The notes beneath the pieces were generated by a model. That model had not been told where the DNA came from, made no database searches, and saw nothing but the letters and a program-made list of their open reading frames with translations. Source: Vermamoeba vermiformis (Eukaryota). From it: a DNA stretch of 44,896 bases. Made by a program: the position numbers and the translations under genes. Below are positions 8,338-44,896 of this stretch, in pieces; the first letter of the stretch is position 1; the number at the start of each line of letters is the position of its first letter. The stretch lies in assembly GCA_045837725.1 (NCBI GenBank), contig JBEWZL010000215.1, forward strand, positions 248,001 through 292,896, given 5' to 3'.

Positions 8338-8883
8338 TTATCGGTCTAGTTCGCCGTGACTCAGATGGAGATGGGTCAGACTTCGATTTTCAGTCAGTCC
8401 GGTTGCTAAAATTCCCACGATTACAATATTCACTACAAGGATATGTTATAGTAATTAAGTAATTCCCAAGGAAGAGGCGTACCATTTAAAGTAAGAGATT
8501 TAATGGATGTGGTCTCTTTCAAAAGCTGCTCTACTGCCTCGTAAATTTCCTTCTCAAAGTTTTCTATCGTCAAATCTTCTAATGTATTGGAAGTTTTTAG
8601 TGCGGTAATTAATGACGCTATTGATTGCGGTTCTGTAAAGAAACAGCGATTGAATTTTATAACCCGCAGTGAAGTATTTCCTCGTAAAGCTTCGACAAAA
8701 TATTCGTTTTTGCCTAGAAATACTAATTAATAATTATGTACATTATCATAAACTAAATTTGAAACCTTCTGAATACGGCCATACATCTAGATGAGTCATC
8801 GACGGCGCAATTTTAAAGCGGGTTCCTGCGAGATAAGCATTTTTGATATCTTGATCATTGTTAAGACAAGGAATATCTTCCAT
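8338..8883 (-). pseudogene. Truncated member of the LRR-SAM-U-box family (N-terminal exons only; copy F)
   Basis: Exon 1 'MEDIPCLNNDQDIKNAYLAGTRFKIAPSMTHLDVW' matches the family start. LRR-like exons follow ('ALRGNTSLRVIKF', 'LKETTSIKSLTLN', 'GLTENRSLTHLHL'), then TAA at 8338-8340. Confidence 0.7.
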
Positions 8884-9177: not shown

Positions 9178-11322
9178 TCATTTTTTGTTGTTCGCGTCAA
9201 TGAACTCACGGATCATACTCTTCAACGTGTGCGAAGGAGTGAGTTGTTTGTTTGACAATTGAAGGCCAGTCATGGGAGAAGTATTGTTGTTCTTCAGCCA
9301 CAGTTCGATTGCTGTTCGTTCATAAGTGTGACCGTCACTCGCAAAGACAGGGTCGTTCATGATATCTTGCGTGATCGGGCAGATGAACGCTTCGGGAATC
9401 TTCGTTTTCTTCTCTTTAAGTGCAATTTTCAGCTCCTTGTTGAATCGTTTCATCTCCTCCAGTTGGTGTTCGAGTTGACTATTAGCCACGTTGTTATTAT
9501 TGTTGGCTAGGTTTTGATTAGGCAACATTCGGTCATCTAGTATTGATTCTTTTAGCCTTAAAATCTCTTTTTGAAGTTTGATGACATCGCTGAGTACTTT
9601 GATCTGAAGTTGACCGATCAGATCCACTTTCTCCAAGAACGCAAGATCTGCTCCTGTGATCTACAATAGCATCAAAATAGGCTCACGTTAGTACGTACTT
9701 GGGATTTAAATGTATTAGACGCACCTCGTTCTTCTTGAAGACGTCGACCAAGTGACCAAACTTGTTGTCTTCGAGCCACGTGCACACAGTGTCGTTGTTC
9801 CATTGCAGCACTCCTGGAGGTATCGTGTAGATGTCGTGGTGTGTTTCAATCAAATGGCGATACATGAGCAGTTGTTTGGCGTCCTTGAATGAAACCTCAA
9901 GATTGACAGTCAAGTCACTCGTGTCGAGCGCTTGAAGCACAGCGCCGTCAATGTTGTTGGCCTCAAACACGGAAGCGTATTTCTGCAGACCAACGTCTGT
10001 TAGTAAGAACAAGACATCGTTGTTGGTCCATTCGCTGATATCGGTTTGAAGCTTCTGTTGCCACTCCTTCAACGCTGGTTCGGTACGCTCGAACGACTCT
10101 TGGAACTTCTTCAAGTTGGCGCATAATGTCTCTTGTGCTTGTTTTTTGTCTTGTAAAGCTTTTGAGTCCGATTCAAGCTTTGATTCGGCAACGGCAATAT
10201 TTGATTCGATTTGGGCAAGTCTGCTTTGTAGTTCTTTCCTCTCCCTGGTCAGTACGTCCAATTGTTTGGTTGTTTCTTGTACAGCAACGTCCAACTTGAC
10301 ACTTTCTAGACACGTGTCATCAAGCAAATGCTTCAACGAATGAATCGCAAGCTTGTCTACGAAGGCCTTCGCACTTAAGTTCAGAACTTGCGGATAAACG
10401 TTATTTACAACTTTCTTATGGCAAACTTCTTTGATAACTTTCGCCAATTCTTCCCAATTGCTGTTTTTGATGTGCGACTCAATGTCGTGCAAATTCCGTT
10501 CAATTCCCGTCCTCTTGATCACTACTTTAAAATCACAAGGTTTTCGAGCTTTAAATTGTTACTAAGTGAAAAAAAATTTATCGAGCACTTACAATAGGCC
10601 GAAGGGTCGGTAGGTAGTTTTCTGCCGCTACTTAAAGCACTAAAGAGTTTTTGTGAGTCACATCTAGCGGCGAAAGGTACTTACATCACTGAATAGTCTT
10701 CAATTGTATCGTTGGCCTGCAGTGCAGTTAATATGCTATCGTAGTCTTTCCTAAGGACTGATGTTTCGCATTGATCATCGGGGAGTAGAAACGTTATTTG
10801 TTCTAAGCTTGAATTTGACGCCAATCCCTCTGAAATGATGTCAATGATTGCCGAATGGTCACCGAAGCCTATTAGGTTGTCGAAGTGAGCAAGTTGCCTG
10901 GTTAAACAACGTAAAAATGTTACCCCAAAGCTCGAGTTTTTTGATAACGCAATTTCGTTTTAGAAGTGTATTTAAGGCCATTAATATGTCTTTGCCGTAG
11001 CAATGAACATTTAATTCTTGCAGGGTGAGGGATCGCGTAAAAGCTGTCAAAATATCTGCGGCATCCGCTGCAATAGGAACGTTTATGGTTGCTTGAGTAA
11101 TTGAAGAATTTTTCCTGATAGCTTCTGCCACAAATTCACGGTTTGGCATTTTTTCTGAATTATTTTAATTTAGAAATTAAATAATTAACCTAGTTTCATC
11201 ATCTTACCTGATACTTCAGCCAGATCTACCCTAGTAACAGCTGGTGATATTAAAAATCGTGCTCCTGATTTAATAAATGATTGAATTTCCGCATCTGTCT
11301 TCAGAACCGGAATGATTTCCAT
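9178..11322 (-). CDS. LRR-like / coiled-coil / SAM-SAM / U-box E3 ubiquitin ligase, copy A
   Basis: Start 'MEIIPVLKTDAEIQSFIKSGARFLISPAV'; RI-like LRR exons; coiled coil; SAM 'WTNNDVLFLLTDVGLQKYASVFEANNIDGAVL'; SAM 'WNNDTVCTWLEDNKFGHLVDVFKKNE|ITGADL'; U-box 'IPEAFICPITQDIMNDPVFASDGHTYERTAIELWL..SPMTG'. Confidence 0.88.
9747..9835. repeat. Near-invariant direct repeat in the SAM1-SAM2 linker/SAM2 start (also ~12105, ~15585, ~17928, ~21013)
   Basis: accaagtgaccaaacttgttgtcttcgagccacgtgcacacNgtgtcgttgttccattgcagcactccNggagg is shared almost base-for-base by copies A, B, D and E; copy C differs slightly. Confidence 0.95.
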
Positions 11323-11557: not shown

Positions 11558-14500
11558 TCATTTTTTCTTGTTCGCGTCAATGAACTCGCGGATCATACTC
11601 TTCAAGGTGTGTGACGGTGTCAGTTGTTTGTTTGACAATTGAAGACCAGTCATGGGAGAAGTTCTTCAGCCACAGTTCGATTGCTGTTCGTTCATAAGTG
11701 TGACCGTCACTCGCGAACACAGGGTCGTTCATGATGTCTTGAGTGATCGGGCAGATGAACGCTTCGGGAATCTTCGTTTTCTTCTCTTTAAGTGCAATTT
11801 TCAGCTCCTTGAATCGTTTCATCTCCTCCAGTTGGTGTTCGAGTTGACTATTAGCTACGTTGTTATTATTGTTGATTATGTTTTGATTAGGCAACATTCG
11901 GTCATCTAGTATTGATTCTTTTAGCCTTAATATCTCTTTTTGAAGTTTGATGACGTCACCAATTTTTTTGATCCGTAGTTGACCGATCAGATCCGCTTTC
12001 TCCAAGAACACAAGATCTGCTCCTGTGATCTATTACACCCTTATATTAGCACGTGCTCGGGACCTAAATGTATTTCGCATACCTCATTCTTCTTGAAGAC
12101 GTCAACCAAGTGACCAAACTTGTTGTCTTCGAGCCACGTGCACACTGTGTCGTTGTTCCATTGCAGCACTCCCGGAGGAATCGTGTAGATATCGCGATGG
12201 GTTTGTATCAAATATATGTACATCAAAAGCTTCTTGGCGTCTTTGAACGAGACCTCAAGAGCGGAGATCAGGTCATTTGTTTCGAGCTGCAGAAGTACCG
12301 CGCCGTCAATGTTGTTTGACAGGAAGGAGCCACAGTATCGTGCAAGGCCTGTCTCTTTCAGTAATAACGTCACATCGTCCTTGGACCAAGTAGCAAAGTC
12401 CGTTTGAAGCGTTTGTTGCCACTTTTTGAGTGCTGGTTCGTTTTTCTTTATAGACGCTTGAAAATTACGGATATTCGTTGTAAGATTTTCTTGAACACGA
12501 GTACTGTCAGTCAATTCTCGTGATTGTTTCTGTATACTTGTATTTACGGATCTCATCCTTGCTTCAACCTCTGTAAGTTTTCGTTGCAATTCATTTCGTT
12601 CACTATTTAATCCAGCAATGGTCCTACTATTGGCATCGAGCTGCCCTTGCAAAGTAGCGCCTCGTTTCTGCGATTCTTGGAACAAGCCTTTCAGTGAATG
12701 AATGGCAAGGTTATCTATGAATGTTTTGGTGCTTAAACTAAGGTCGCTCGGATAAATTTCTGAGATCACGTGTTCGCCACAATTTTGTTGCAAATATTTC
12801 GCTAGTTCTTCCCAATTGCTGCTCTTTATAAAATTTTCGATGGTGCATAGCTGATTGTCTTTGAACAGCGTTCGCTCAATGGAAAACTCCGTGTGCGTCA
12901 CTAAAAATACGTTGGTATTATAATTGTTTAGTCTGAGTTGTACCTACCTATTGAATTATCATTTTGGTGCCCTGCGAAACATTCATCAGAAACAGATCTG
13001 ACCGAGATCAAAAATTCTTACCCCGTTTAGTAAATTTTGTTATATTCCCGTGATTCAGAAGTGCTTCCTTGAGTTTCTTCTCAAACTCGAATTGACCGTA
13101 GGCACTGGTTATATTCAGGGTCAGTTCGGTCAAGCTAGAATTTGCAGCCAGCCCATCTAAAAGTTGTGTTGCGTAAGAGGGTACAATTACACCTAATTGA
13201 TAATATTAGAAATTATAAAGAAATATTTGCAATAGTACCATCGAGATTTAGGGTTTTAATTGACGAGTTTTGTCGCAGAAAAGTGCTGATCGGAGGTGTA
13301 AGAATGAGGTGGTCTCCAAATTCAACAGTAAGACTAATAAGGGTTTTTGATTGAATAAGTGAATGAATTAAAGCCAGAGATTCGGTTTGGAATTTCCTGC
13401 CGCCGCCAGCGAGAATCGTCACATCCGTCAGTATTGATGACTATTGTAAAAAGAGATAAAGGAAAATTTATGATAAAATTAATTTAAATAGTGCATGCTG
13501 CTGCAAGGATATTTTAATTTATAATTTACGGCATTTCAATATTGTTAAGGTTCATTTTTCCGGTTGCGCCCACGAGATTCGAGAACCGTGAAGTCAATTT
13601 GACCACCGTGGATAAGTTTAGTGGGTTTAGTGGCACTAAAAATATATGACGCCGTTAATTTGCTAGTCGGCTCTAATTAAACTTTGAAATTTTTTACAGC
13701 CACATCCAGCAACGGATCTGCAGCAAAAATTCTTGCAAGCACAATACCATTAATATACATCCTGTTGCGTGATGGTTTTGTGCGAAAAGAAGAGATAGTA
13801 ACAGAAAAAATTTTGCACGAGAAAATATACTTTTTTACAAAAAAGGAAATAGCCGGGCACAAGAAACACGAAGGGTTTCTCTATTAGTAGTGCATCTTTT
13901 TGGTTGAAACTGCGGCTGTATCTTGATAATGTCGATGTACAATTGTTGTGCTTACAAGCATGTTTGAAAAACAATTACATCCGGCCCCTGATCCTGCAGG
14001 GGTTAGCCCTTAAGGGCAAAGTATTAGCTTGTTAAATTTTGAGAGAATAGTATAACTCTCATTACGTCATGGAGTAATACAGCAGGCACTGCCGATCTCA
14101 TTTAATTCGACAGATTGCTCTCAAAATAAATCTAATGGGCTAAACCTAGCTACAAGTATTTATATTGATTATAAAACATTCAAATTATCGCCAAAAACGA
14201 AGTAATTATGCAGACAAAGCGTCAATCCGATCTTCTAAAAAATATTCGCTCCAGAAATTTTTCTTGTGTAATCAAATGCTCAAAAATATATTTATTATTA
14301 GTATTAAAGATATTACGACTATTATCTAACGGAGCAAAATTCGCCGAGGCCTAATCTCACATCTGATCTCATAATTTGCCACAAAAACGAGCACAGCTGT
14401 TAATTATATCTATAATACACTGATGAAATACCTTAGATCATATACTAGCATTTGAACATCTGTTTGTTAATCACAACGGGCACGTGCCACATTCAGATGC

Positions 14501-15026: not shown

Positions 15027-17149
15027 TTATTTTTTCTTGTTAGCGTCAATGAACTCACGGATCATACTCTTCAAAGTGTGCGAAGGAGTGAGCTGTTTGT
15101 TTGACAATTGAAGGCCAGTCATGGGAGAAGTATTGTTGTTTTTCAGCCACAGTTCGATTGCTGTTCTCTCGTACGTGTGACCGTCACTCGCCACCACTGG
15201 CTCTTGCATCATGTCTTGAGTGATCGGGCAGATGAACGCTTCAGGTATCTTCGTTTTCTTCTCCTTTAGTGCGCTTTTCAGCTCTTCGTTGAATCGTTTC
15301 ATCTCTTCGAGTTGACGCTCCAATTGCTTGTTGCTTGCATTGCTGTTGCCAGTCTTAAGTTGTGCTTGTAGTCCGTGTTCGTCTTTTAGCGAGTCCTTGA
15401 GTTTCGCTATCTCCAAATGGAGTTTAATAACATCACCAAGCGCTTGGATTTTCAAATGACGTGTCAGTTCTGTCTTCTCTAGGAAGACGAATTCCGCACC
15501 ACAGATCTGTGCGTATGGTTAACAGGAGTAGTATTAACATGTCAAACGCTACCTGATGATTCGCGAATATGTCAACGAGATGACTAAACTTGTTGTCCTT
15601 CAGCCACGTGCACACGGTGTCGTTGTTCCATTGCAGCACTCCCGGAGGTATTGCGTATATGTCGTGTTGGGTTTGAACTAGATACACGTACATAAGAAGT
15701 TTCTTGGCCTCTTTGAAAGACACTTCGAGAGTCGATATCAAGTCGTCCGTTTCGAGCGCTTTCAGCACTGTTCCATCAATTTTGTTCGCCACAAAGACTT
15801 GCGAGTAGTTCCCAAGGCCAATCTCCGTGAGCAAAAATGACACGTCCTCACAGGACCACGTGCCAATGTCCGTTTGAAGCTTTTGCTGCCATTTCTTGAG
15901 AGCTGGCTCGTTCTTCTTCAGCGCATTTTCAAAGCTCTGCATATTTTCGCGAAGGAACAGCTGGGCAGCACTCTTCTCGGATAGCACTTGGCTATTCGAC
16001 TGAATTTGCGAATCGACTTTGATGAGATCTGCTTCGACTCCATCCAGCTGTTTTCGGAGTTCGTCGCGTTTCTTGGTTAGCGCCGAAAACTGCTTGCGTT
16101 TCTCCTCGGTCTCGGATTGAATTTTGTTCTTTTCGTTGGTCGCATCTTCTACCATTTTCTGCAAAGCATGAATTGCCAGCTTATCTACGAAGGTTTTAGT
16201 GCTCAAGTTGTGCCCTTCAGAGTAAAATTTTTTCAAGAGTACGGTCTGGCAGTTGCTTCTTAGAAACTGGGCCAGCTGTTCCCAGTTGCAGTTACTAATG
16301 AGTTCATCGAGTTGGTCTGTGGACCTTCTTTCGATTAGAAAGGACAGGTGCACTAGATCGTCTGGAAACCGTTAGCAGCAGTTGAAAGTATTAAGTTACA
16401 TACCAGTCACAACGGCGTGTGGAGATACGACGGATCCAAGACTTTTGGATTTAGGATTATTCTCTAAAGAGGGATTATCAGAGTGATTAAATATTAGATG
16501 TTTAGTAATTCAACTCACGTCTAATTTCAAATCGCAACACGGTAGGATTTTTCCGCAGTGCAGCGATAATTCTTTTGAAATCGTCGTGTATCTTTTCTCG
16601 CTGATTGTAGTTATCAAACGTTCTTACGTCAAGCGTAGTCAAGCTTGAGTTATCCTCCAGTCCCTTGTAAAACTGATCGGAGTTCATGCAACCGAAGCCT
16701 ATCAAATTGAAATAAGCATATTTACTAGAGTGAAACAGTACTTACCAATGATCGAGAGAGACTTAAGAGACGAGTTCTCCATTAACAGATTTCCCACAGA
16801 AGAAAAAAATCGCTCATTGTTGCTCTCAACTTCCAGTTCTCGAAGGACTTTTGATGCATGCAAGCTTTTAAGAATAGGCGCCAACTTAGTAGGAACAGTT
16901 CGCCACGAGTGGTTTAGTTTTACTGCTGTGATTGAATTGTTTTCTTGCAGCGCATCCGCAACGCAATGGTGATTTAATATTTGTTCTACCGCAATTAAGG
17001 GTTAATCAAGACATTATTGAATATTAATTATATTTACCTGTCCAAAGCTCAATTCTCTTCACTGATGAGGCAATTTTAAAACGTGTGCCATGGGTAATAG
17101 CGTTTTTGATATCCGCTTCGGTGCCAAGAGTGGGTATACTTACTTCCAT
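15027..17149 (-). CDS. LRR-like / coiled-coil / SAM-SAM / U-box E3 ligase, copy C
   Basis: Start 'MEVSIPTLGTEADIKNAITHGTRFKIASSV'; LRR exons 16502-16990; coiled-coil + SAM exon ~15553-16353; U-box exon ending 'REFIDANKKK*'. Confidence 0.88.
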
Positions 17150-17371
17150 CACTAGTGTTTGTAGGTGTATCAAATTAATTGGAATGGTCGGTTTTGTCGT
17201 GTTTCTTTTTTTGAAACGAATCACAAAATTGAATTCTATTCTTTTCCACAAAAGAATAGGTGCCAATATACGCGTGGACAGAAGCAGTAGTGAAATGTTT
17301 CACGTTTTACGATGGTTTTTGCAAGGAGAAGCGTGGAGAGCAGGATAAATCTTATAACCGAAGTGCAGTCG

Positions 17372-20113
17372 TTACTTTTTCTTTTTGGCATCAATGAACT
17401 CGCGGATCATACTCTTCAAGGTGTGCGAAGGTGTCAGTTGTTTGTTTGACAATTTAAGACCTGTCACGGGAGAGCTGTTGCCGCTCTTTAGCCACAGTTC
17501 GATTGCTGTTCTCTCGTACGTGTGACCGTCACTCGCGACCACTGGCTCTTGCATCATGTCTTGCATGATCGGGCAGATGAACGCTTCAGGTATTTTGGTT
17601 TCACGTTGTTTGAGAGTCAGTTTGAGCTCTTCGTTGAATCGCTTCATCTCTTCGAGTTGACGTGCAACGTAGTCATTGACGTTATTGGTTTTCTGGCGTT
17701 GATTTTGCAAGCTATGGTCATTCGATAGCGAATCCTTAAGTATTGAAATCTCTTTTTGCAGCTTAATGATGTCGCCCAGAGCTTGAATTTTTAAGTGATT
17801 GTTTAGATCCACTTTGTCCAAGAAAGCAAGCTCGGCTCCTGTTATCTATTTACCTCAAGTCAGTACTTGAGGTACGCACTGGTGGTCTAAATAAATTTCA
17901 CTTACCTGATGTTTCCTAAAGACTTCGACCAAGTGACCAAACTTGTTGTCTTCGAGCCACGTGCACACGGTGTCGTTGTTCCATTGCAGCACTCCCGGAG
18001 GTATCGTGTAGATGTCGCGATGTGCTTGAACCAAGTGGACGTACATTAATACACGTTTGGCTTCTTTAAAAGTTAATTTGAGGTTCGCTGACGTAAGATC
18101 AATAGTGTCGAGTGCTGAAAGTAAGGCGCCGTCAATCTTGTGGCTTGCAAAAGCGGAGGTGTACGCTTTGAGTCCAATCTCAGAGAGCAAGAACTGGACG
18201 TCTTCCGAGCTCCAGTCAGCCAAGTCAGTGCGTAGCTTTTGCTGCCACCTAGATTTGTTTTTGTATGACTCCCAATAAGCCTCTAGCTTGGTGGCGAGTG
18301 TCTGGATGCAGTTCTTGTACACTCTTGTATTTACATCGAAGTCTTGCTTATTATGCGTCGGTTGCAAGAAGTCTGCCTCGATAATACCAATGACGCCAAC
18401 TGCATCTGGATTGATCTGATTTTGAATTCCGACGCGCAAGTATGGTTTGATGAGGCGATTTCTGTGGTAGAGCATGATGCCATACAAATTAGGATTATCC
18501 ACGTTCATGCCAAATGTAATCCTCGTGTTTTTCTACAAATACAAAAAAAATTAAAATGTGCCAAGGAGTGGCTAATAGCGAAATAAATATAAAGCGCATA
18601 TGCTTAAAATAAAGCCATTACTTACATAAACATCAAACATACGGTTGGCAAGTGAAGCGTCTACAAATTTTGGTTGAACCTTTGTGCCTCGCAAGACGAT
18701 AATCATTCTCGGCTTTGAATATAATATAGAGCAGTATTCCTGATATTAGATAGTGTCATTAGCATGCAAAAGAAGCAGATAGGACTGCTAGACTTACTCG
18801 CAGCGAGAAATCAATCGGACTTTTAACATGCGTGCCCTGGCCTGTTTGGTGCTGTTGGAAATGCAGCCTTTTGCCTTTAGGACTCTGAATACAGATTAGA
18901 TGGTGCATATCCGAGACCTTAAAGCTTACCAATACATTGGCTATCCTAATATCACATGGGTCTGTTTCAAAATCGAGCTCGTATGGCGCATCCCGCTCTG
19001 TTGAAATTTTTAGCAATGGTTGACGTTGATCCAGTTAATTATACGTACCTTTACCAACTGTTCGCAAATTATATACAACGATATGAGTACCAGTGCCTCT
19101 CTTGGTACCATTAGGTATTCTTTTGAATCTGTTCATCATGTCGTGGATCGTTTTGAACGGTGAGTAGGTTTGAATAGCACCTAGACTTTGCTCGGCGGCT
19201 TGAAGCTCTGTAAGACACTCTAAATATAACGGTAAGCAACTTTTAAGTAGCAACAGTGTTCTAATTGGACTTACTTCCAGTCGCATCCCACGTAACCATC
19301 GGAATGAGGACTGAAGTTGCATTTTCAGCGAATAAAAAGGTTTGAGACAACATGCCAATGCTATAAGTACTTTTTGATTTCGAAAAAACGATTACATCTC
19401 GGCCTAAACGCATTGAACCGGATTTGAATCCGTTGCCGTAGTGACCGATCGGTTTATGTCCATTGACTTCTTCCTGCATTGACGGTTATGAAATTAGACA
19501 TGTTTTTAATAATAAAGTAAGTTTAACCCAGACAGAGCTTCGAAAAGCAGTGAATTCGCTCGTGTCAGTCAGTCACGTACCTTCTCACAATATCCAAAAC
19601 TCAGCATTTTGTATAATTTATCGATTTCCATGCCGTAGCCATTATCGGTGAAGCATAATCGAGGCTGGCCGTTTTTTTCTTCTTCGACATCGATCCAAAA
19701 TCTGGTTGCCATAACATCCGGATCTGTCGCATTATCTGTGCAATGTTTTAGTTACGTAACTATAGTAATATTCAGTCGTACGTACCCACGAGTTCGGCTA
19801 TTGCTCCGAAGGCCCAAATGTGACTTGTCGAATTGCTGTGCAAAAATTTGGGATGTGTCTGCAATTTGGATAATAATTAGTACGGGCATGTAAATATAAT
19901 GTAATAATTAATAAATAATTGTAATAATTAATATTGTATCATTTTTGCAATCAATTTGCGAATTGGTGTTCCAGCGAGATCGCTCGAATCTATCTTTTCA
20001 ATTAAATATTTAGAAATAATACATACCATGCTTTGTTCAACAAAGCAATATTTTTTGGCTGCATTTGATTGCGCCTCGTGAGGAGTCGCAGCTGCTGGAT
20101 TACGGATTGCCAT
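17372..20113 (-). CDS. Chimeric MORC-family GHKL ATPase-S5 fused to SAM-SAM-U-box (copy D)
   Basis: MORC motifs '[25 protein letters not shown]', 'FTDNGYGM', '[16 protein letters not shown]', '[11 protein letters not shown]', '[14 protein letters not shown]', '[10 protein letters not shown]'. Within one exon these continue into 'WQQKLRTDLADWSSEDVQFLL' (SAM), SAM2 and then the U-box exon. Confidence 0.9.
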
Positions 20114-20348
20114 CTTCGCGACTGACTGACGATTTAAAATTGAATTGATTCTTCTCTCGCCGTAATAAATATTATTGTAAACGGTGTATTTATTTACAAA
20201 GCTGGGTAGGAGCTGATTTTGGGTCTACTTGCGATCTGCGAACACCCTTTCGAGTATTTTCCAAAATCGCCTCGTGGTTGCTCTATCTACAGAATTTGAC
20301 TGCGTTAGCGCGGCGCCGAAACTTGTTTGACAGAAAACTCTTCCGTGA
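18287..20348. repeat. Inverted segmental duplication, partner at ~42790-44896
   Basis: Exons, introns and upstream DNA all match. For example aaaatcgcctcgtggttg.tctatctacagaatttgactgc (20263-20303) is the reverse complement of 42848-42888. Confidence 0.95.
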
Positions 20349-20473
20349 CAACGCAATCCACAAGAAAGAACGTCTCGATTTGGTTGGCCAATTAATATCG
20401 GCACCTCATTTTTTTAAGCGTCATGAATTACAGTTTATTGTTGAACAAATATTGGTGAGGCCTTTCGTATTGT

Positions 20474-22585
20474 TCATTTTTTCTTGTTAGCGTCAACGAA
20501 CTCGCGGATCATACTCTTCAAGGTGTGTGAAGGAGTGAGTTGCTTGTTTGACAATTGAAGACCAGTCATGGGAGAAGTGTTGTTGTTCTTCAGCCACAGT
20601 TCGATTGCTGTTCTCTCGTACGTGTGACCGTCACTCGCGACCACTGGCTCTTGCATCATGTCTTGTGTGATTGGACAGATGAACGCTTCAGGTATTTTGG
20701 TTTCACGTTCCTTGAGAGTCATTTTGAGCTCTTCGTTGAATCGTTTCATTTCGTCAAGTTGACGAGCTAGTTGATCGTTATTGTTGTCCTTCAGTTCCAA
20801 GATTTGTTCATTGCGTAGCGAATCTCTGAGCTTAGAGCTTTCTTTTTGAAGCTTAACGACGTCGCCGAGAGTAGCGATCTTCAAATGATTGGTCAGATCC
20901 GCTTTCTCCAAGAATGCAAGTTCAACGCCAGTAATCTACACGAAAGCAATGTTAACATCAGTCTGATACGTTAGGTATTATTTTACGTACTTGGTTCTTC
21001 TTGAAGACATCGACCAAGTGACCAAACTTGTTGTCTTCGAGCCACGTGCACACGGTGTCGTTGTTCCATTGCAGCACTCCTGGAGGTATCGTGTAGATGT
21101 CGTGCTGGGTTTGAACCAAGTGAACGTACATTTGCAGCTTCTTGGTGTCTTTAAATGACAAGTGAAGAGTCATCAAATCATTGGTGTCAAGACACGCGAG
21201 TGCCGAGCCATCAATATTGTTGGTTGCGAAGGCGGAAGCGTAGTTTTTCAAACCTACTTCTGCTAGTAAGAGCGATACATCTTCAATACTCCATGTGCTG
21301 AGGTCGGTTTGTAACTTCTTTTGCCATCTCTTTAGCGCTGGTTCGTTTGAACTCAACGCAGCCTGAAATCTGGTCAAGTTCGCAAGAAGGTTATCCAGTG
21401 CGGAGTTTTTTGCCGTTAAAGAGTTTGATTCCGATTTGATCTCCTCGTTGACTTGTTCGAGTTCTGTTTCCAGCGCCAAAAGTTGTCGTCGTACTTCGAT
21501 CAGCTTGGCTGAAAGGGTCTCGGATTTGGTCATCTTTTCAGTGAGGGATGACATCAGTGCGTTAGTCTCCTCTTTTGTTTCGTTGAGTAGTTGACTAATT
21601 GAGTGGACGGCGAGTTGGTCCGCGAAAGTCTTGTTGCTCAAATTGCAATCTTGCGGGTAGATCTGGCCTTCGACGATACGTGCAGGACAGGTCTCTTTCA
21701 AGAACTTGGCCATCGCCTCCCAGTCGGGACTATTGGACAAGAGAAATTCTTTTGCGGGTGCCTTTCGTTCAATTGTAATGCACAAGCGCGCAGCCTGAGC
21801 ATCTGCTGGGGTTAGCAAACATAATACTACTCACGCTTACATACCTGACAGAGATTTGTCGGGCGATATACTGAAGCAAGCTCCCGAGCCACCTTAATCT
21901 AGAATTAAAAAGGGGGATAACTGAGAGCGACTTACTTTGGATCGCAAATTGTTTAATATTTGGATTTAACCGCAAGGCAGCAATGATTTTTCGAAAATTT
22001 TCGTTTATCGCTGTGATGCTAGCACGATTTCCTCCAATACTATAGTTTTCAAGCTCAAACCGAGTTAACTCAAGTCGTAGCAGCGACGAATTTCTTGCCA
22101 AACCTGAATAAAATTCTTCCGGTTTCATGTAGCCCAAACCTGAAAAATATCAGTCTGAAGAATTTTCAATAGTAGTGCTTACCGGAAATAGAAAGCGACT
22201 TGAGCAAAGTATTCTCTTTCAGCAGAGTACCCAGCGCGACATACATATCATCTTTATCACTGACTACGGTAAGCTCTTGCCAAATTTTGGAGTGTTTCAA
22301 ACTCGCTAAAAGTGGCACTATTTGTCCAGGATCTGTGTTCCAAAAGTGATTTATTTTCAAGCTGGTGATGGAGGTGTTATTTCTTAAAGCTTCTTCAACG
22401 TAGTCCTGGCAGGCAATTATATCTATTAATTTATTTTAAAATTATTATAAACAAAAATAAATTGGAATCCGGGTACCTGTCGCTACTTCCAGAGACGTTA
22501 TTTCTGCACCAATTCTGAATCTTGTTCCATCAAGAATAGCGGTGTTTATGTCATCATCGGTGTTAAGAGTAGGTATTGCTGCCAT
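20474..22585 (-). CDS. LRR-like / coiled-coil / SAM-SAM / U-box E3 ligase, copy E
   Basis: Start 'MAAIPTLNTDDDINTAILDGTRFRIGAEITSLEV'; LRR exons 21850-22420; coiled-coil + SAM exon 20990-21810; U-box exon 20474-20936. Confidence 0.88.
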
Positions 22586-29343: not shown

Positions 29344-31164
29344 CGGAAGATCAAACAGAACCAGCTTGAACGAGTTATTAAGAACGAATCACGATTTCTT
29401 AGTAATATTAGAAGTCTAAAAATTGCTTGGCAGAAGAATTACGTCGATTATACCAATTTTTTCAACAAAATTACAACGTTAACGCAATTTACCGCGATCA
29501 GCTACGAAAGGTCAAGCAACCCCTATTATACTCAAATAAGCGATATAATCGTCAATAATAAGGACAATTTACGAGAAATATCGCTAACGAACAACATGCG
29601 TTCAAAAAATATGATGACAGATCAAAGCTGCATCCAACTTTGTAACGCTCTGCGGAATAACTCAACGATAACCTCGTTATATCTCGACGATTATTTTGGG
29701 ACTATAGAACAAGTTAATATGTTTATGGAGACTATTAAGACGATGAGTGCACTGACAAAGTTAGAGTTGCTAGGAATTTCCGAAATAAGCGGATCTGCTT
29801 CAGCTAATATAATTTACAATGCGCTTCAAAACCATCCATCAATTACTTCATTAGGAATGCTGTATTGGGGACATACAGATGATGCAAAGGCGTTTCATGA
29901 ACTGTTGAAAAATTCTCCGAAATTGTCCGAGATCAAAATATCTTGCAGGAGACGAGGCGAAATAATTGCGTTAAATCAAATTATACAAGATAATAATAGT
30001 AATATAACGTCTATAGTATTCAAACATTACATCATGGAAGTCAATCTATTGCACGGTCTTGGATCCAATCAAAAAATTACGAAACTGGAATTAACTCATT
30101 TTAGAAGCGCCGAAGAATTGGCAAAATTATTGCAATGGTTACAACAAATGAATTCATTGACGGATTTAACGATAAACAATTTCGGAAGCGATGAACAACT
30201 TGCATTATTTTGCGATTATTTGCAATCTGCAAAAATTCAACGCTTGACGATCAAGTTGTTCAAAGAAACCACTGACATGGAGGTGATCGAGAAATTTATC
30301 GGAGTAATTGAAAATCACAAGACAATTACAACTTTGTCCGTGAACAATTTGGCCGTCGGATGTAACTCCGAAGTGGCATTCAGAAAACTTTTAATGAACA
30401 ACAAAACATTAACGGATCTGACACTAACAAGGGTCGATATAACAGAAGAATTCTTAGCAATGTTAGAGGAAGTGTTGGAATCGAATTCATGTCCAAATTT
30501 GGAAAGTTTAGCAATTAAGGAAAAAACGATTTTTTCAAAAGCCGTAATGCAAAGATTTTGTGCGGCGTTAAGTAAGAACGAAACACTAAGGAAATTTAAA
30601 TGCGGATATGTTGGATACTACAACGCTCAAAGTATATATGCATTAATACTAAACAATAACACGATCGAAGAGATGGATCTGCGTTTTGATTATGCCAATT
30701 TTGATGATGTTGATGGGGTGTTTAGGACTTCATTGGTTGAGGCACTTAAAATGAACAAAAATATTACCAAATTTACGGCAAACTATGATTTGGAAGATTA
30801 TGAGCCGTATTTGGAGAACAACAGAAAATTGCGAAACGAGATCCGACAAGATTTTATCATCTTGATGCATAACCTCACAAACAATACTTCACCGTTACCT
30901 ATGGAACTGTGGCACATTATTTTTTCACAGACAAAGATTCAAGCAGTTGATAAAAAGTTCATCGAAAAAGTTTTAAAACTGCGTAACGATTAACACCGCA
31001 AATGTCCATACAACGATGGATTAAATAATATTGTTAATTTATGACCTAACACAGACAAAGACACGGCAAAAAAATTACTGGCGTCTGGCATGCACTGGGA
31101 CCATTCACTTCATCCTAACGCTAACGACCACCAAGAACAGTTCTTTGAGATGCTCTACGAGTAA
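29344..31164 (+). CDS. RI-like LRR protein with an F-box-like motif near the C-terminus
   Basis: Frame is open from an acceptor at ~29343. Repeated 'ALxxNxxITxLxL' motifs; 'LPMELWHIIFSQ'. Probable last intron 30983-31054 and last exon to TAA 31164. Start may be an ATG|GT at 29190. Confidence 0.75.
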
Positions 31165-31499: not shown

Positions 31500-33216
31500 T
31501 TACACTGAGTGGTTTGACATGTCGGTCAAATAACCGAATATTCGCAGCCAAATCTCCAACGGCAACATCGATCCATTTTTCATTATGTTCGCTAACAATA
31601 CGCCTAATGTGACACGCAGTTGTTTGTTACGTTGCAGCCAAATGTCTACGCGATAATCCATAGAAAAAGGTTCGAAGTACAGCAGTGTTGAGTTTGCCTT
31701 GGAAAATTCATTTGCAACCAAATCCACGGCAATATCTCGGTCTGCAACTGGAATTTCCAAATATAGTAATGTTTTGTTGACTTTGAGGACTTCCAATATT
31801 TTTTTGAACGGACCCAGTTTGACTTTTAAGTTCTCGATGATTGATAATGACTGAATGTGCCTGTTGACTCGTAATAGCTTGCATATTGATTCTAGCGCTA
31901 GATCCGACAAAGTATTATGTCCGAGCGATAATTTTCTTAGTTTAGTGTTTTTTTCCAGTCCGACTGCCAATTGAATTGCTGTATCTTCTTCCAGTGATTT
32001 AGTGATATCTAATTCAGTTAATTTACCGTTCACTGAATTCAATCCTTCAATAAACTTTGTCATGTCGAAACTATCTACTTCGTACAATTGTAGTTTGGTC
32101 AATGTGGGCATAATTGGTCGCAAGTCGTTGTAATCTAGTGTACCAATACCATCGTAATAAGAAGACGTTATTGTCATTGATTTGAAGTTGACACTTGATT
32201 TGACACTTTGACACTTGGCCATGACACTTGCAACTGTTGCTCTCGTACAAGCCAAATCAACGATAGATGTCTGTGCCGCTATAGCTTCAATTAATGTTTC
32301 TGATAATGCTATGCTTGTAATATCTAATGATTTGAGGTTCGTCAGGTGTTTGAGCGATCCGGCCAGCTGATCGGCGGAAGGACCGTAAAAACAATTGTTA
32401 ACGACGAGTTTGGTCAAGTTGTAATAGTGTCCTATATCTTTTATGAAGTTTGAAATTCTGATATCTTGCCAATGGAAGTCTCTAAGCTGAAGTTCAACCA
32501 GATTCGTTTTTGGATTCGCGTTGTTGAGATCTTGTAAATTGTATGGATAATCATCGGCACTTATTTCCAAGTTGGATAATGACGTGTTAGCGGCAATTGC
32601 TACGAACATAGTATTTAGTGCGTATTCAACGTTGTCTAATTCCAATGATTTTAAGTTGGAGCAGATCTTCATTGTTTCGAATAATTTCTGGCAATATTCC
32701 TCTCCAAGGCACGTTTGTTCTACACTTAAATTGATCATGACGCTGCCTTTGAGTATTAGCTTGCACAAAGCTTTGTAAGCTCGTCGCAGATCGACTTGTA
32801 AAAACGAGACTTCTTCAAGTGAGCTTATTTTTAGTAATTTTGAGCAAATAACTGCACCATCATCTATAAATTGCGTTCTTTTGAATATTATTGACTTTAA
32901 TGATGGTTTAATAAGCTTGGTGATTTTCTCGTTAGCGGATTTGCCAAAACTGCAATAGTCGAACTTTATCTTGGTGACTAATTCTAATAATTGCGATTGT
33001 TTGTATAATATCTTAATTATTTGTTGCAAATGAGGTTCGTCCAAGTCGTAAAATTTTATACTGGATACTTTTTGATCTTCAATACACGCGCTGTATTCTT
33101 GCCAGTGCGCTACTTTGCTTCTTGTAATTACTATGGTGCTCTATATAATTTTAATAATTAATATTCTATTATTTTCCCACGATACTGTTCAAAACAAAAA
33201 CAAATCTGCTTACCAT
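31500..33216 (-). CDS. RI-like LRR protein with a C-terminal F-box-like motif
   Basis: ATG|GTAAGC micro-exon at 33216-33214 followed by a long exon. LRRs such as 'GLEKNTKLRKLSLGHNTL'; 'MLPLEIWLRIFGYL' near the stop. Confidence 0.8.
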
Positions 33217-42493: not shown

Positions 42494-43067
42494 GGAGTTC
42501 TCGGCTAGGAGTGAAAGATCAGATTGGGCTCGCCTTTCAATATTTGGGCATCGAGTACAATGTGAATTATTTTAGTGGTTTTTATAATATTGTTTTTGTT
42601 TAATATTGAAGAAAAAAGAAACAGATCGCTCTTCTCGGATCTCGAAAAGCTACGCGAAGAGAAAATTGCAGCAACTGTACCTTGCGAAAAAATCTGCGCT
42701 GAGGACTTCACGGTCGAATAAATTGAATAACTGGCAAAAGATGTTCGTTTTTGGCTACACCGACAAAATGATGTTCACGTTTTTTGGATCACGTGGGAAG
42801 AGTTTTCCCGTCAAACAACTTTTGGCTTCCCAAGAGCGGAACGAAAGCAGTCAAATTCTGTAGATAGAACAACCACGAGGCGATTTTGGAAAACACTCGA
42901 AAGGGTATTCGCAGATCGCAAGTAGCCGTTCGCGCCCAAAATCTGAACTTTGAGTGCTCAAACTCAGCATTGTAAATAATTACACCCTTTTGTACATATT
43001 ATTTGTTACTGCAATTACACCTCAGAGAAGAATCAATTCAATTTTAATTCGTCAGTCAGTCGCGAAG

Positions 43068-44896
43068 ATGGCAATCCGTAATCCAGCAACTGCGACCCCT
43101 AGCGAGGCGCAACCAACGTCAGATGCTGCCAAAAAATATGCTTTTGTTCAACAGAGCATGGTATGTATTATTTCTAAATATTTAATTGAGAAGCTAGATT
43201 CGAGCGATCTCCAATCTCCAATTCGCAAATTGATCGCAAAATTGATACAATATTAATTATTACAATTATATTTACATGACCATATTAATTATTATCCAAA
43301 TTGCAGACACATCCAAAATTTTTGCACAGCAATTCGACAAGTCACATTTGGGCCTTCGGAGCAATAGCCGAACTCGTGGGTACGTACGACTGAATATCCC
43401 CATAGTTACGTAGCTAAAACATTGCACAGATAATGCGACAGATCCGGATGTTATGGCAACCAGATTTTGGATCGATGTCGAAGAAGAAAAAAACGGCCAA
43501 CCTCGATTATGTTTCACTGATAATGGCTACGGCATGGAAATCGATAAATTATACAAAATGCTGAGTTTTGGATATTGTGAGAAGGTACGTGACTGACTGA
43601 CATGCGCGAATCCACTGCTTTTCAAATTTCAATTCCAAAGTTCTGTTGGGGTTAAACTTACTTTATTATTCAAAACATGTCTAACTTCATAACCTTCAAT
43701 GCAGGAAGAAGTCAATGGACATAAACCGATCGGTCACTACGGCAACGGATTCAAATCCGGTTCAATGCGTTTAGGCCGAGATGCGCTCGTGTTTACTCGA
43801 TCAAAGAGTACATTTAGCATTGGCATGTTGTCTCAAACCTTTTTATTCGCTGAAAATGCAACTTCAGTCCTCGTACCAATGGTTACGTGGGATGCGACCG
43901 GAAGTAAGCCCCAGTTAGAACACTGTTGCTGCTTAAAAGTTGCTTACCGTTATATTTAGAGTGTCTTACAGAGCTTCAAGCCGCCGAGCAATGTCTGGGA
44001 GCCATTCAAACCTACTCACCGTTCAAAACGATCCACGAGATCATGAATAGATTCAAAAAGATACCTAATAGTACCAAGGGAGGTACTGGCACCCACATCG
44101 TTGTATATAATTTGCGAACAGTTGGCAAAGGTACTTATAAATTAACTGGATCAACGTCAACCATAGCTAAAAATTTCGACAGAGCGGGATGCGCCATACG
44201 AGCTCGATTTTGAAACAGACCCACGTGATATTAGGATAGCCAATGTATTGGTAAGCTTTGAGATCTTGGATATGCATCGTCTAAAATGTATTCAGACTCC
44301 TGAAGGCAAAAAGCTGCATTTCCAACAGCATCGAAATGGCCAGGGCACGCAGGTTGAAATTCCGATTGATTTCTCGCTGCGAGTAAGTCTAGCAGTCCTA
44401 TTTGCTTCTTTTGCATGCTAATGACACTATCTCTTATTAGGAATACTGTTCTATATTATATTCAAAGCCGAGAATGATTATCAACTTGCGAGGCACAAAA
44501 GTTCGAACAAAATTTGTAGAAGCTTCACTCGGCTACCGTATGTTTGATGTTTATGTAAGTAACGGCTTTATTTTAAGCATATGCGCTTTATACTTAGTTC
44601 TCGATAAGATAATCCTTGGCGCATTTTATTAAATTTTTTGTTCGCTCCAGAAAAACACGAGGATTACATTTGGCATGAACGTGGATAATCCTAATTTGTA
44701 TGGCATCATGCTCTACCACAGAAACCGCCTCATCAAACCATACTTGCGCGTCGGAATTCAAAATCAGATCAATCCAGATGCAGTTGGCGTCATTGGCATT
44801 ATCGAGGCAGACTTCTTGCAACCGACGCATAATAAGCAAGACTTCGATGTAAATACAAGCGCGTACAAGAACTGCATCCAGACACTCGCCACCAAG
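43068..44896 (+). CDS. MORC-family GHKL ATPase, 5' part (runs off the window end)
   Basis: Same exons and motifs as 18287-20113 in inverted orientation; ends at '[25 protein letters not shown]'. Confidence 0.92.

What the first reader, a model, noticed from the sequence alone, without database searches (positions are those of the whole stretch)
17372..20113. MORC ATPase integrated into a tandem-SAM/U-box E3 ligase array
Seen in sequence: a MORC GHKL+S5 module with intact ATP-binding motifs (ELVDN, DNGYG, GHYGNG, GT) and the S5 'PTHNKQDF' lysine. It runs in frame, inside one exon, into the SAM-SAM-U-box tail shared with the neighbours. The junction is at ~18250-18265 ('YWESYKNKSR|WQQKLRTD' versus paralog 'EPALKKWQQKLQTD'), exactly where the paralogs' LRR/coiled coil ends. 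Established: MORCs are ATP-gated DNA clamps that silence transposons and viral DNA, and normally continue into CW and/or coiled-coil regions; U-boxes are E3 ligases. I do not know of a described MORC-SAM-U-box protein. Inference: either a DNA/chromatin-sensing ubiquitin ligase, or an 'integrated decoy' for pathogen factors that target MORC, analogous to plant NLR integrated domains.
Basis: partly seen in the sequence, partly recalled or inferred. Interest (0 to 1): 0.92.

Follow-up and report, generated by a model that had tools for sequence, protein, structure and literature searches.

The report
Young MORC ATPase–U-box ligase chimeric gene
A recently duplicated front half of a MORC DNA-clamp ATPase gene has been joined in frame to the SAM–SAM–U-box ubiquitin-ligase tail of a neighbouring gene family, giving an intact chimeric gene with no counterpart found in the databases searched, though its expression is still unshown.

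Summary
On the minus strand, 20113-17372, ten GT-AG exons give a 684-aa open frame. It contains a MORC3-type GHKL+S5 ATPase module, two SAM domains, a helical stretch and a U-box. The S5-to-SAM junction lies inside one exon.

The head is a copy of about 2.1 kb of a canonical MORC-CW gene that lies inverted at 43068-44896. The copy includes about 235 bp of upstream DNA. Identity is 89% and dS is about 0.14. That other locus is the ancestral one.

The head replaced the head of one member of an old tandem SAM-SAM-U-box family; tail dS to its nearest paralog is 0.90. The breakpoint is at 18252/18251.

A read-derived contig bridges the junction.

The frame is intact and 85 of 86 MORC-invariant positions are kept. 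Even so, the head evolves about four times faster in protein than its parent (omega about 0.52 against 0.14).

No protein or locus joining S5 to SAM or U-box turned up in five database searches or in three paper searches.

The three RNA runs gave no usable reads, so expression is untested. Function as a DNA- or MORC-directed E3 ligase is inference.

Verdict: a real, young, lineage-specific chimeric gene, and a new variant of known kinds.

The parts
20027..20113 (-). Exon 1 of the chimeric gene (ATG at 20113)
   Evidence: Splice model. The start 'MAIRNP' is shared with copy 2, P0001 and L002.
19786..19858 (-). Exon 2 (start of the GHKL N-box, ...AIAELV)
19581..19735 (-). Exon 3 (DN of the N-box; DNGYG G1 box)
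   Evidence: HATPase_c_3 at E 6e-4 on this exon alone; alignment.
19275..19473 (-). Exon 4 ([11 protein letters not shown]2 box)
   Evidence: HATPase_c_3 at E 1.6e-5, 25.4 bits against a cut-off of 25.
19049..19219 (-). Exon 5 (GTGT motif)
   Evidence: The donor choice is supported by L002, which keeps 'TTGKE' at the same place.
18930..18997 (-). Exon 6
   Evidence: the same exon exists in copy 2 and in L002.
18798..18884 (-). Exon 7
18626..18739 (-). Exon 8 (start of the S5 domain)
   Evidence: Morc6_S5 at E 5e-5, profile positions 5-44.
17906..18532 (-). Exon 9: end of the S5 domain with PTHNKQDF, the fusion junction, SAM 1 and the first half of SAM 2
   Evidence: One open frame. Morc6_S5 at 1.3e-24 and SAM_1 at 2.1e-12. 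Best solved relative of residues 1-106 is MORC3, PDB 6o1e.
17372..17845 (-). Exon 10: second half of SAM 2, a helical stretch, the U-box and the stop codon
   Evidence: U-box at E 9.5e-22. Solved relatives are LubX, PUB12 and CHIP U-boxes.
18251..18252 (-). Recombination breakpoint between MORC-derived and tail-derived sequence
   Evidence: In run X1 a contig matches the stretch down to 18252 and then runs on for 255 other letters. By my hand translation these read as a MORC S5-to-CW linker (table 7). Paralog alignment. Metagenome relatives match query residues 1-94 only.
20114..20345 (-). Upstream DNA duplicated together with the MORC head (candidate promoter and 5' UTR)
   Evidence: blastn similarity to copy 2 runs to 20306. 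By eye it continues to about 20345. Over the blastn-aligned part there are 17 mismatches in 192 aligned bases.
43068..44896 (+). Parental MORC gene (copy 2), exons 1-9; the window ends about 35 bases before the breakpoint equivalent
   Evidence: The ancestral status of this locus rests on L002, which has the same neighbour gene, the same exon structure and a CW finger downstream.
20474..21326 (-). Tail (SAM-SAM-U-box) of upstream paralog E, the nearest relative of the fusion's tail
   Evidence: 81.8% nucleotide identity; dS 0.90 and omega 0.17.
15027..15891 (-). Tail of paralog C
11577..12421 (-). Tail of paralog B, with its U-box broken by a frameshift
   Evidence: alignment.
9178..10063 (-). 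Tail of paralog A

Best explanation
What it is. This is a real, young, lineage-specific chimeric gene. About 2.1 kb of a canonical MORC3-like MORC-CW gene was duplicated in inverted orientation into an old tandem array of SAM-SAM-U-box genes. The copied piece ran from about 235 bp upstream of the ATG to the last helix of the S5 domain. It replaced the whole head and coiled coil of one array member. The join fell in frame, inside an exon, immediately before SAM domain 1.

What is shown:
- the structure of the gene;
- its parentage;
- the breakpoint;
- the relative ages of head and tail;
- that the reading frame and all MORC-invariant residues are kept, while the head's protein sequence evolves about four times faster than its parent's.

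What is inferred (how it works). In this family the tail is the constant ubiquitin-ligase part, and the head varies between relatives: LRR_6 or ankyrin on the same SAM-SAM-U-box tail, and kinase, Kelch or armadillo among more distant U-box matches. The head is therefore most likely the target-recognition part.

The chimera should then be a U-box E3 whose targeting module is a MORC ATPase. ATP-driven head dimerisation would bring the ligase to wherever a MORC3-type head goes. Two destinations are possible. One is DNA or chromatin. The other is the parental MORC itself, through a mixed head dimer.

The SAM/helix/U-box tail would take over the constant C-terminal pairing role of the lost MORC coiled coil. 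The CW histone reader, and whatever control it exerts, is lost.
For: Structure:
- Ten GT-AG exons give a 684-codon open frame.
- Pfam finds Morc6_S5 and SAM in one exon and a U-box in the next.
- MORC3 is the best solved relative, with the alignment running to the end of the ATPase cassette.

Parentage:
- Identity to copy 2 is 89.4% over 2077 nt, introns and upstream DNA included.
- Metagenome locus L002 carries a canonical MORC-CW gene with the same nine-exon structure. Its upstream neighbour is the same as copy 2's (62% identity, E 8e-28).

Age:
- Head dS is 0.14; tail dS to its nearest paralog is 0.90.
- No remnant of a paralog head lies in 18253-20480. The best tblastn E was 0.13, while positive controls gave 1e-9 or better.

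Junction in reads:
- X1 contig record 3 (260 nt, 18042-18301) has 0 differences and depth 403, like the other exact single-copy contigs at 339-400.
- The shared S5 segment sits at 857, about double.
- A second contig branches off at 18252.

Constraint:
- 0 frameshifts or stops, and one in-frame 6-nt gap in 1200 head bases. Introns show 6 gap events in 605 bases.
- 85 of 86 MORC-invariant ATPase-module columns are kept, and none of the 26 fusion-specific changes hits one. By my arithmetic about 5.6 hits would be expected, P about 0.002.
- On the fusion branch there are 13 synonymous and 25 non-synonymous changes. Omega is about 0.52, and the one-sided test against neutrality gives P = 0.047.

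Variable heads on related tails: LRR_6 (P0196) and ankyrin (P0198) sit on the same SAM-SAM-U-box tail. More distant U-box matches carry ankyrin, kinase, Kelch or armadillo domains.

From papers (passages of PMC5651269): the MORC C-terminal coiled coil is needed for homodimerisation, and MORC paralogs form heterodimers.
Against: - No transcript evidence. RNA runs X21, X22 and X23, which carry the same species label as X1, gave 0, 0 and 1 reads on 17200-20400. About 46-48% of each run was read, at min_likeness 96. The tool flags this as no test, because the organism's presence in those runs was not shown.
- The junction is bridged by a single short contig. It comes from a run that may be the assembly's own sample.
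- In X1 the window's own letters at 18321 and 18323 are not seen; only the copy-2 letters appear.
- Relaxed constraint: omega is 0.52 on the fusion branch against 0.14 on the parent branch (Fisher P = 0.028). The test against neutrality is only borderline.
- 10 differing sites could not be polarised.
- The time since fusion is too short to show constraint on the tail.
- One sister tail (paralog B) is frameshifted, so members of this array do decay.
- No orthologue of the fusion was found in any other sample, so there is no conservation evidence.
- No biochemical property was tested.
Confidence: 0.62

Rival explanations
1. Evolutionary accident on its way out. The chimeric gene is real DNA but has no function. 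It is either not expressed or makes a useless protein, and its intact frame only reflects its youth.
For: - The head's omega rose to about 0.52 from about 0.14 in the parent.
- The fusion has 26 derived amino-acid changes against 3 in the parent.
- No RNA reads were found (flagged as no test).
- No orthologue was found elsewhere.
- Sister tail B is already frameshifted.
Against: - At the intron indel rate (6 events in 605 bp for both lineages together), about 6 indels would be expected in the 1200-nt head on this branch alone. Only one is seen, and it is in frame. By my arithmetic the chance of no frameshift is about 0.01.
- None of the 26 changes hits any of the 85 invariant columns.
- All ten splice-site pairs are intact.
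- Non-synonymous changes are fewer than neutral expectation (P = 0.047).
Confidence: 0.22
2. Integrated decoy. The MORC head is a bait that mimics the parental antiviral MORC. Attack on it by a viral or bacterial factor would switch on the U-box tail. This resembles the integrated domains of plant NLRs or the self-guarding described for human MORC3.
For: - The abstract of PMC13373173 (search listing) states that MORC3 is an antiviral protein frequently inhibited by viruses.
- The head sits in a family whose relatives carry variable recognition-type heads such as LRR_6 and ankyrin.
- The head's surface evolves fast while its core is conserved. That pattern is compatible with bait-pathogen conflict.
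Against:
- Every catalytic motif is kept, which a pure bait would not need.
- An omega below 1 gives no sign of positive selection.
- The organism was not identified.
Confidence: 0.1
3. Assembly artefact. A MORC copy and a U-box family tail were wrongly joined at a short shared or repeated sequence.
For: - The region is a tandem array of paralogs with a second MORC copy nearby.
- Only one bridging contig was displayed (8 of 99 laid records were shown).
- X1 may be the sample the window was assembled from.
- The S5 segment next to the junction is nearly identical in both MORC copies (4 differences in 246 bases).
Against: - Its depth equals that of the flanking single-copy contigs.
- The head is not the parent mis-joined. 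It differs from copy 2 by 10% in introns and by 26 derived residues.
- The join is in frame and sits exactly at a domain border.
- The window contains no N.
Confidence: 0.05

Closest known systems
MORC3 / MORC4-type MORC-CW ATPases (solved: human MORC3 ATPase-CW cassette, PDB 6o1e)
   Same: The N-terminal GHKL + S5 ATPase module is the same. MORC3 is the best solved relative of the S5 part (E 1.2e-26). 85 of 86 columns that are invariant in 15 canonical MORCs are kept. The exon structure is identical to the canonical gene in L002.
   Different: Everything after the last S5 helix is missing: the CW zinc finger, the long charged region and the C-terminal coiled coil, all of which P0001 and L002 have. 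Two SAM domains, a short helical stretch and a U-box stand in their place.
WDSUB1 and related SAM + U-box ligases (WD40-SAM-U-box in animals; a 2xSAM + U-box gene in Monosiga)
   Same: A SAM domain or domains is followed by a C-terminal U-box. This architecture is described in passages of PMC3087547.
   Different: Pfam found no WD40 in the exon frames scanned (10, 4 window frames). Here the tail has two SAM domains. Relatives carrying this tail have LRR_6 or ankyrin heads. Sequence kinship of this U-box to WDSUB1 was not tested, because no WDSUB1 sequence was on hand.
The local family: head + coiled coil + SAM-SAM + U-box (window paralogs A, B, C, E; P0194-P0196 elsewhere)
   Same: The tail is homologous from 'WQQKL' to the stop. 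It is about 82% identical in nucleotides to paralog E, with the same intron position inside SAM 2.
   Different: The family head and coiled coil are entirely absent and are replaced by the MORC ATPase module.
TRIMCyp (TRIM5-cyclophilin A) chimeric restriction factors (recalled from general knowledge; no call)
   Same: Works alike in principle: an E3 ligase whose target-recognition part was replaced by a duplicated copy of another gene, giving a young lineage-specific chimera.
   Different: TRIMCyp has a RING/B-box/coiled-coil scaffold, and its insert arrived by retrotransposition without introns. Here the donor copy keeps its introns and promoter, so this was a DNA-level segmental duplication. 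The ligase part is C-terminal, and no antiviral role is shown.
Integrated domains of plant NLR immune receptors (recalled; concept only)
   Same: A copy of a host protein that pathogens may target is built into a member of a tandemly expanded, variable-head family.
   Different: There is no NB-ARC or TIR module, no known effector, and no evidence of immune function.

Membership tests
MORC ATPases | GHKL ATP-binding motifs (N-box E..DN, G1 DxGxG, G2 GxxGxG, lid GT) | tested here: met
   [20 protein letters not shown] and GTGT are present. 85 of 86 invariant ATPase-module columns of 15 canonical MORCs are kept. HATPase_c_3 matches exon pieces.
MORC ATPases | S5-fold domain with the conserved basic residue (PTHNKQDF) | tested here: met
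   Morc6_S5 at E 1.3e-24 on exon 9 and 5e-5 on exon 8. The motif is identical to MORC3 in the alignment.
MORC ATPases | C-terminal CW zinc finger and/or long C-terminal coiled coil (typical, but not universal) | tested here: not met
   Pfam finds no zf-CW in exons 9 or 10, whereas P0001 and L002 have it. The MORC-derived sequence ends at 18252.
MORC ATPases | ATP hydrolysis, ATP-dependent head dimerisation, DNA binding | not testable with these tools
   This needs purified protein. The spliced protein could not be handed to the folding tools, which accept only unspliced window sequence.
U-box E3 ubiquitin ligases | Complete U-box domain | tested here: met
   PF04564 at E 9.5e-22, profile positions 1-72 of 73. 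20 solved U-box chains match at E from 8e-16 to 6e-6.
U-box E3 ubiquitin ligases | E2 binding and ubiquitin transfer | not testable with these tools
   A biochemical assay is needed.
WDSUB1-type ligases | WD40 repeats N-terminal to SAM and U-box | tested here: not met
   Pfam found no WD40 family in the exon frames scanned.
WDSUB1-type ligases | SAM domain followed by U-box | tested here: met
   SAM_1/SAM_2 (two stretches) and a U-box.
Local head-coiled coil-SAM-SAM-U-box family | Homologous tail with the shared intron inside SAM 2 | tested here: met
Local head-coiled coil-SAM-SAM-U-box family | Family head and the coiled coil before 'WQQKL' | tested here: not met
   tblastn of 11 head and coiled-coil pieces against 18253-20480 gave a best E of 0.13. 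Controls gave 1e-9 or better.
Young chimeric (fusion) genes | Both parents identifiable, a defined breakpoint, and the donor younger than the recipient | tested here: met
Young chimeric (fusion) genes | Transcribed and spliced as one mRNA | tested here: inconclusive
   0, 0 and 1 reads in three RNA runs. The tool calls this no test.
Integrated decoys of immune receptors | The bait is targeted by a pathogen factor and coupled to an immune output | not testable with these tools
   No data are available.

The most novel reading that the evidence does not exclude
The chimera is a working ATP-gated ubiquitin ligase. A MORC clamp head closes on foreign or transposon DNA, or is attacked by a viral anti-MORC factor. 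Through SAM-driven clustering this switches on a U-box E3. That would couple nucleic-acid or effector sensing directly to ubiquitination, a link between MORC silencing and ubiquitin signalling that has not been described.
Probability: 0.15. Interest if true: 0.85.

Novelty: new variant of a known kind. Interest (0 to 1): 0.55.

Why it matters
MORC ATPases are DNA clamps used for transposon and virus silencing. How their ATP cycle is coupled to downstream effects is an open question.

Here nature has cut the ATPase cassette exactly at its C-terminal border and attached an E3 ligase. If the protein is expressed, that gives a ready-made construct for asking two things. One is whether MORC head closure can drive another enzymatic activity. 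The other is whether a MORC head can serve as a targeting or bait module.

Independently of function, the locus is a clean, datable example of exon-level domain swapping. Both parents, the breakpoint, the co-duplicated promoter and the asymmetric rate change after fusion are all visible in one 45-kb window.

If it turns out to be untranscribed, it is simply a short-lived by-product of a recombining tandem array.

Tried and rejected
- Whole genome: none is held for this window. The 3' part of the parental MORC could therefore only be inferred, from a loose contig end and from relatives P0001 and L002.
- RNA evidence: X21-X23 gave 0, 0 and 1 reads. The tool calls this no test.
- Complex prediction on two copies of exon 10 (helix + U-box) scored 0.05 and 0.04 against a mark of 0.32. 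That is no verdict and was not used either way.
- ESM Atlas on the junction exon gave a best score of 0.80, below the useful range. Atlas on the SNF2 neighbour gave no taxonomic clue.
- Folding the chimera was not attempted.
- Organism identity was not established. The best named MORC relatives are cnidarian at 58% over 47% of the exon, so no close annotated genome is in the databases.
- An LRR identity for the window's paralog heads is not supported by Pfam.
- I considered gene conversion as an explanation of the head's apparent youth. Synonymous changes are symmetric (13 against 14), and introns are 9.9% diverged throughout. Conversion may therefore explain only the nearly identical S5 exon segment (4 differences in 246 bases).
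Full report
**1. What is in the sequence**

The window is eukaryotic DNA with short GT-AG introns. On the minus strand between 20113 (ATG) and 17372 (stop) I could join ten exons, each flanked by a canonical acceptor and donor. Together they give one 2055-nt frame of 684 codons.

The translation carries the GHKL motifs [20 protein letters not shown] and GTGT, and the S5 motif PTHNKQDF.

- Exon 9 (18532-17906): Morc6_S5 at E 1.3e-24 (residues 4-87) and SAM_1/SAM_2 at 2.1e-12 and 6.6e-10 (two stretches each).
- Exon 10: a complete U-box, E 9.5e-22.
- Exons 3, 4 and 8: pieces of HATPase_c_3 and the start of Morc6_S5.

Among solved structures the S5 part is closest to human MORC3 (6o1e, E 1.2e-26). 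That alignment runs to the last helix of the ATPase cassette, just before the linker to the CW finger. The U-box is closest to LubX, PUB12 and CHIP U-boxes.

**2. Where the two halves come from**

*The head.* A second MORC gene lies on the + strand at 43068-44896 and is cut by the window's end. blastn aligns 20306-18287 with 42844-44896 at 89.4% over 2077 nt, including all eight introns and the upstream region. By eye the upstream similarity continues to about 20345.

Copy 2 is the ancestral locus. A metagenome contig from a relative (L002) carries a MORC gene with the same nine exon borders. That gene continues into a CW zinc finger (E 5e-18). It also has the same divergently oriented neighbour gene as copy 2 (62% identity, E 8e-28). 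P0001, an 898-aa intron-free relative, is likewise MORC-CW.

*The tail.* The tail belongs to a tandem family on the same strand. Tails of paralogs A, B, C and E end at 9178, 11577, 15027 and 20474. They share the stretch from 'WQQKL' to the stop and the intron inside SAM 2. The nearest is E, at 81.8% nucleotide identity.

*No leftover head.* tblastn of 11 head and coiled-coil pieces of paralogs A, C and E against 18253-20480 found nothing (best E 0.13). The same queries found gene C at E 1e-9 to 1e-28. The family head was therefore cleanly replaced.

**3. The breakpoint**

- Paralogs read '...NEPALK(K/R/E)|WQQKL', and the chimera reads '...YWESYKNKSR|WQQKL'.
- In the DNA run X1 one contig matches the stretch down to 18252 and then continues for 255 other letters (table 7). 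Reverse-complemented and translated by hand, the first 30 of these read as a MORC S5-to-CW linker, similar to the one in L002 and P0001.
- The two closest metagenome relatives match exon 9 at 91% over residues 1-94 only.
- The join is therefore at 18252/18251, one to two bases before the Arg codon that precedes WQQKL. No clear microhomology is visible.

**4. Is the join real DNA?**

The window has no N.

In X1, 99 contigs were laid: 71 at 99% or more and 28 at 95-99%. Only 8 were displayed.
- Record 3 (260 nt, 18042-18301) has 0 differences and crosses the junction with more than 31 letters on each side.
- Its depth is 403, like the other exact single-copy records (339-400).
- The S5 segment shared by both MORC copies (record 4, 18272-18511) has depth 857. 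It shows only the copy-2 letters at 18321 and 18323.

This fits two loci sharing that segment, one running on into the tail and one into the CW linker.

Caveats: there is one bridging record, and X1 may be the assembly's own sample. However, small differences from the window (11 listed places) suggest it is not the identical data.

The head cannot be the parent mis-joined, because it differs from copy 2 by 9.9% in introns and 5.9% in exons.

**5. Age and selection**

*Age.* Between the two MORC copies, dS is 0.141, dN is 0.041 and omega is 0.29 (Nei-Gojobori). The tail against its nearest paralog gives dS 0.90 and omega 0.17. The tail lineage is thus far older than the head's arrival.

*Branch rates.* With the L002 nucleotide sequence as outgroup (395 codons, 10 sites ambiguous), one search gives:

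| Branch | Synonymous | Non-synonymous | Omega | P, fewer non-synonymous than neutral |
|---|---|---|---|---|
| Fusion | 13 | 25 | about 0.52 | 0.047 |
| Parent | 14 | 7 | about 0.14 | 1e-5 |

The two branches differ (Fisher P = 0.028). Synonymous rates are equal.

With P0001 as a protein outgroup, 26 derived residues fall on the fusion, 3 on the parent, and 5 are ambiguous.

*Conserved positions.* Of 96 columns invariant in 15 canonical MORCs, 86 lie within the compared ATPase module. Both copies keep 85 of them. The one departure is a gap shared by both. The fusion-specific departures at nearly invariant columns are three conservative ones: A132V, T136S and V162I. By my arithmetic, if the 26 changes fell at random over 395 positions, about 5.6 would hit the 85 invariant columns, and P of none is about 0.002.

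*Indels.* Introns show 6 gap events in 605 aligned bases. The upstream region shows 5 in 192. The 1200 exon bases show one, of 6 nt and in frame. At the intron rate about 6 events would be expected in the head on the fusion branch alone, so an unbroken frame is unlikely under neutrality (about 0.01 by my arithmetic).

*Reading.* Constraint is relaxed but real. Alternatively, constraint is mixed with some adaptive change on the surface. The time since fusion is too short to say anything about the tail. Its lineage-specific changes (20 of 265 columns) are within the range of its sisters, at 11-21. Sister B has a frameshifted U-box.

**6. Is the architecture known or found elsewhere?**

| Search | Query and scope | Result |
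|---|---|---|
| | Junction exon, word-indexed, proteins of 367-2000 aa | 49 hits among 1022 candidates. All MORC (46 list zf-CW). None lists SAM or U-box. None covers more than 57% of the query. |
| | Junction exon, proteins of 114-366 aa | 22 hits among 104 candidates. None has both S5 and SAM. |
| | Junction exon, exhaustive HMMER over 1.84 billion representatives | 557 hits, best 150 listed. Matches either end by query residue 112 or start at 62 or later. |
| | U-box exon, longer proteins | 20 hits among 638 candidates, none with a MORC domain. |
| | Junction exon, metagenome contigs | 31 loci, none matching beyond residue 106. |

Two follow-ups:
- Its only two-stretch MORC, P0055, is a tandem MORC-CW.
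- The tail-type hits I scanned (P0050, P0052, P0054, P0057, P0171, P0185) have SAM only.

In one search the hits sharing the SAM-SAM-U-box tail had LRR_6 or ankyrin heads. More distant U-box matches carried kinase, Kelch, armadillo or Sel1 domains.

Caveat: the chimera's own exon is also absent from these libraries, so this organism is only partly represented. P0050 is nearly identical to paralog E's exon and comes from a 2-kb NCBI contig.

Papers:
- MORC + U-box + SAM domain: 1 paper, unrelated.
- HATPase_c_3 + U-box: 0 papers.
- MORC + GHKL + U-box: 5 papers. I checked two by passages (PMC5651269; PMC3417536) and neither links the two. The other three were seen as listing and abstract only.
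- Passages of Iyer et al. 2008 (PMC2292703) list MORC partner domains without U-box or ubiquitin terms. Its supplements could not be opened.
- Passages of PMC3087547 describe WDSUB1 (WD40-SAM-U-box) and a Monosiga gene with two SAM domains and a U-box. These are the nearest described relatives of the tail's layout.

**7. How it most likely works (inference)**

In this family the SAM-SAM-U-box tail is constant and the head varies. The head is therefore most plausibly the part that chooses the target. Swapping in a MORC ATPase cassette should send the ligase wherever such a cassette goes.

Passages of PMC5651269 state two relevant things. GHKL ATPases need a separate C-terminal dimerisation element, since deleting the coiled coil abolishes MORC3 homodimers. 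And MORC paralogs heterodimerise.

The chimera lacks the MORC coiled coil but has SAM domains, a helical stretch and a U-box, all of which commonly self-associate (general knowledge). Two concrete modes follow:
- (a) A homodimeric clamp on DNA or chromatin that carries an E3.
- (b) A mixed head dimer with the 92%-identical parental MORC (366 of 400 residues), bringing an E3 to it.

The co-duplicated upstream DNA suggests the chimera is expressed like the parent. The decoy reading is possible but has no support of its own. None of this was tested, and the one complex prediction gave no verdict.

**8. Verdict**

The gene is a genuine, young, lineage-specific chimera of a MORC3-type ATPase cassette and a SAM-SAM-U-box ligase tail. 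It is intact and under some constraint. Expression is unshown, and there is no counterpart in the databases or papers searched.

It is a new variant of known kinds rather than a new kind of system. Interest is moderate until a transcript is shown.

Noticed in passing
window 11577-12029 (-): The U-box exon of paralog B is frameshifted after 'ELWLKN' and lacks one residue in the helix before it. This array member looks like a pseudogene or a truncated ligase.
   Followed up: partly
window 18272-18511 and 44651-44896: The S5 exon segment is almost identical in the two MORC copies (4 differences in 246 bases, against 5.9% for all exons). In run X1 only the copy-2 letters are seen at 18321 and 18323, at double depth. 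This may be local gene conversion, or a strain difference from the assembly.
   Followed up: partly
window 17375-17845 (-): The best solved relative of this eukaryotic U-box is the Legionella effector LubX (E 8e-16), ahead of plant PUB and CHIP U-boxes. This hints at a free-living microbial eukaryote but is no evidence for one.
   Followed up: no
window 17300-17372, 20345-20474: Genes of the array are packed very tightly. Only about 70-170 bases separate one gene's stop from the next gene's first coding exon or duplicated promoter piece. How each gene gets its own promoter is unclear.
   Followed up: no
window 29344-30993 (+) and 31500-33140 (-): Two long single-exon frames (549 and 546 aa) have a repeat-like build and end in an F-box-like 'LP.E(I/L)W..IF' motif. 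Pfam gives only weak LRR and F-box-like matches for the second (E 0.015-0.02) and none for the first.
   Followed up: partly
window 37447-42571 (-): A large SNF2-family gene is the divergent neighbour of the parental MORC. Its SNF2 identity rests on the Atlas best cluster, SNF2-rel_dom at score 0.92. The same neighbour relation is seen in metagenome locus L002.
   Followed up: partly
window 8433-8726 (-): A head-type exon frame similar in style to the paralog heads lies downstream of paralog A, with no SAM/U-box tail visible after it in the ORF list. It may be a remnant or a differently built member.
   Followed up: no
runs X21-X23: Three 2026 RNA runs carry the same species label as the best DNA holder. 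They gave essentially no reads on a 3.2-kb stretch that includes segments conserved among five paralogs. Either the strain differs by more than 4% or the family is silent under those conditions.
   Followed up: no
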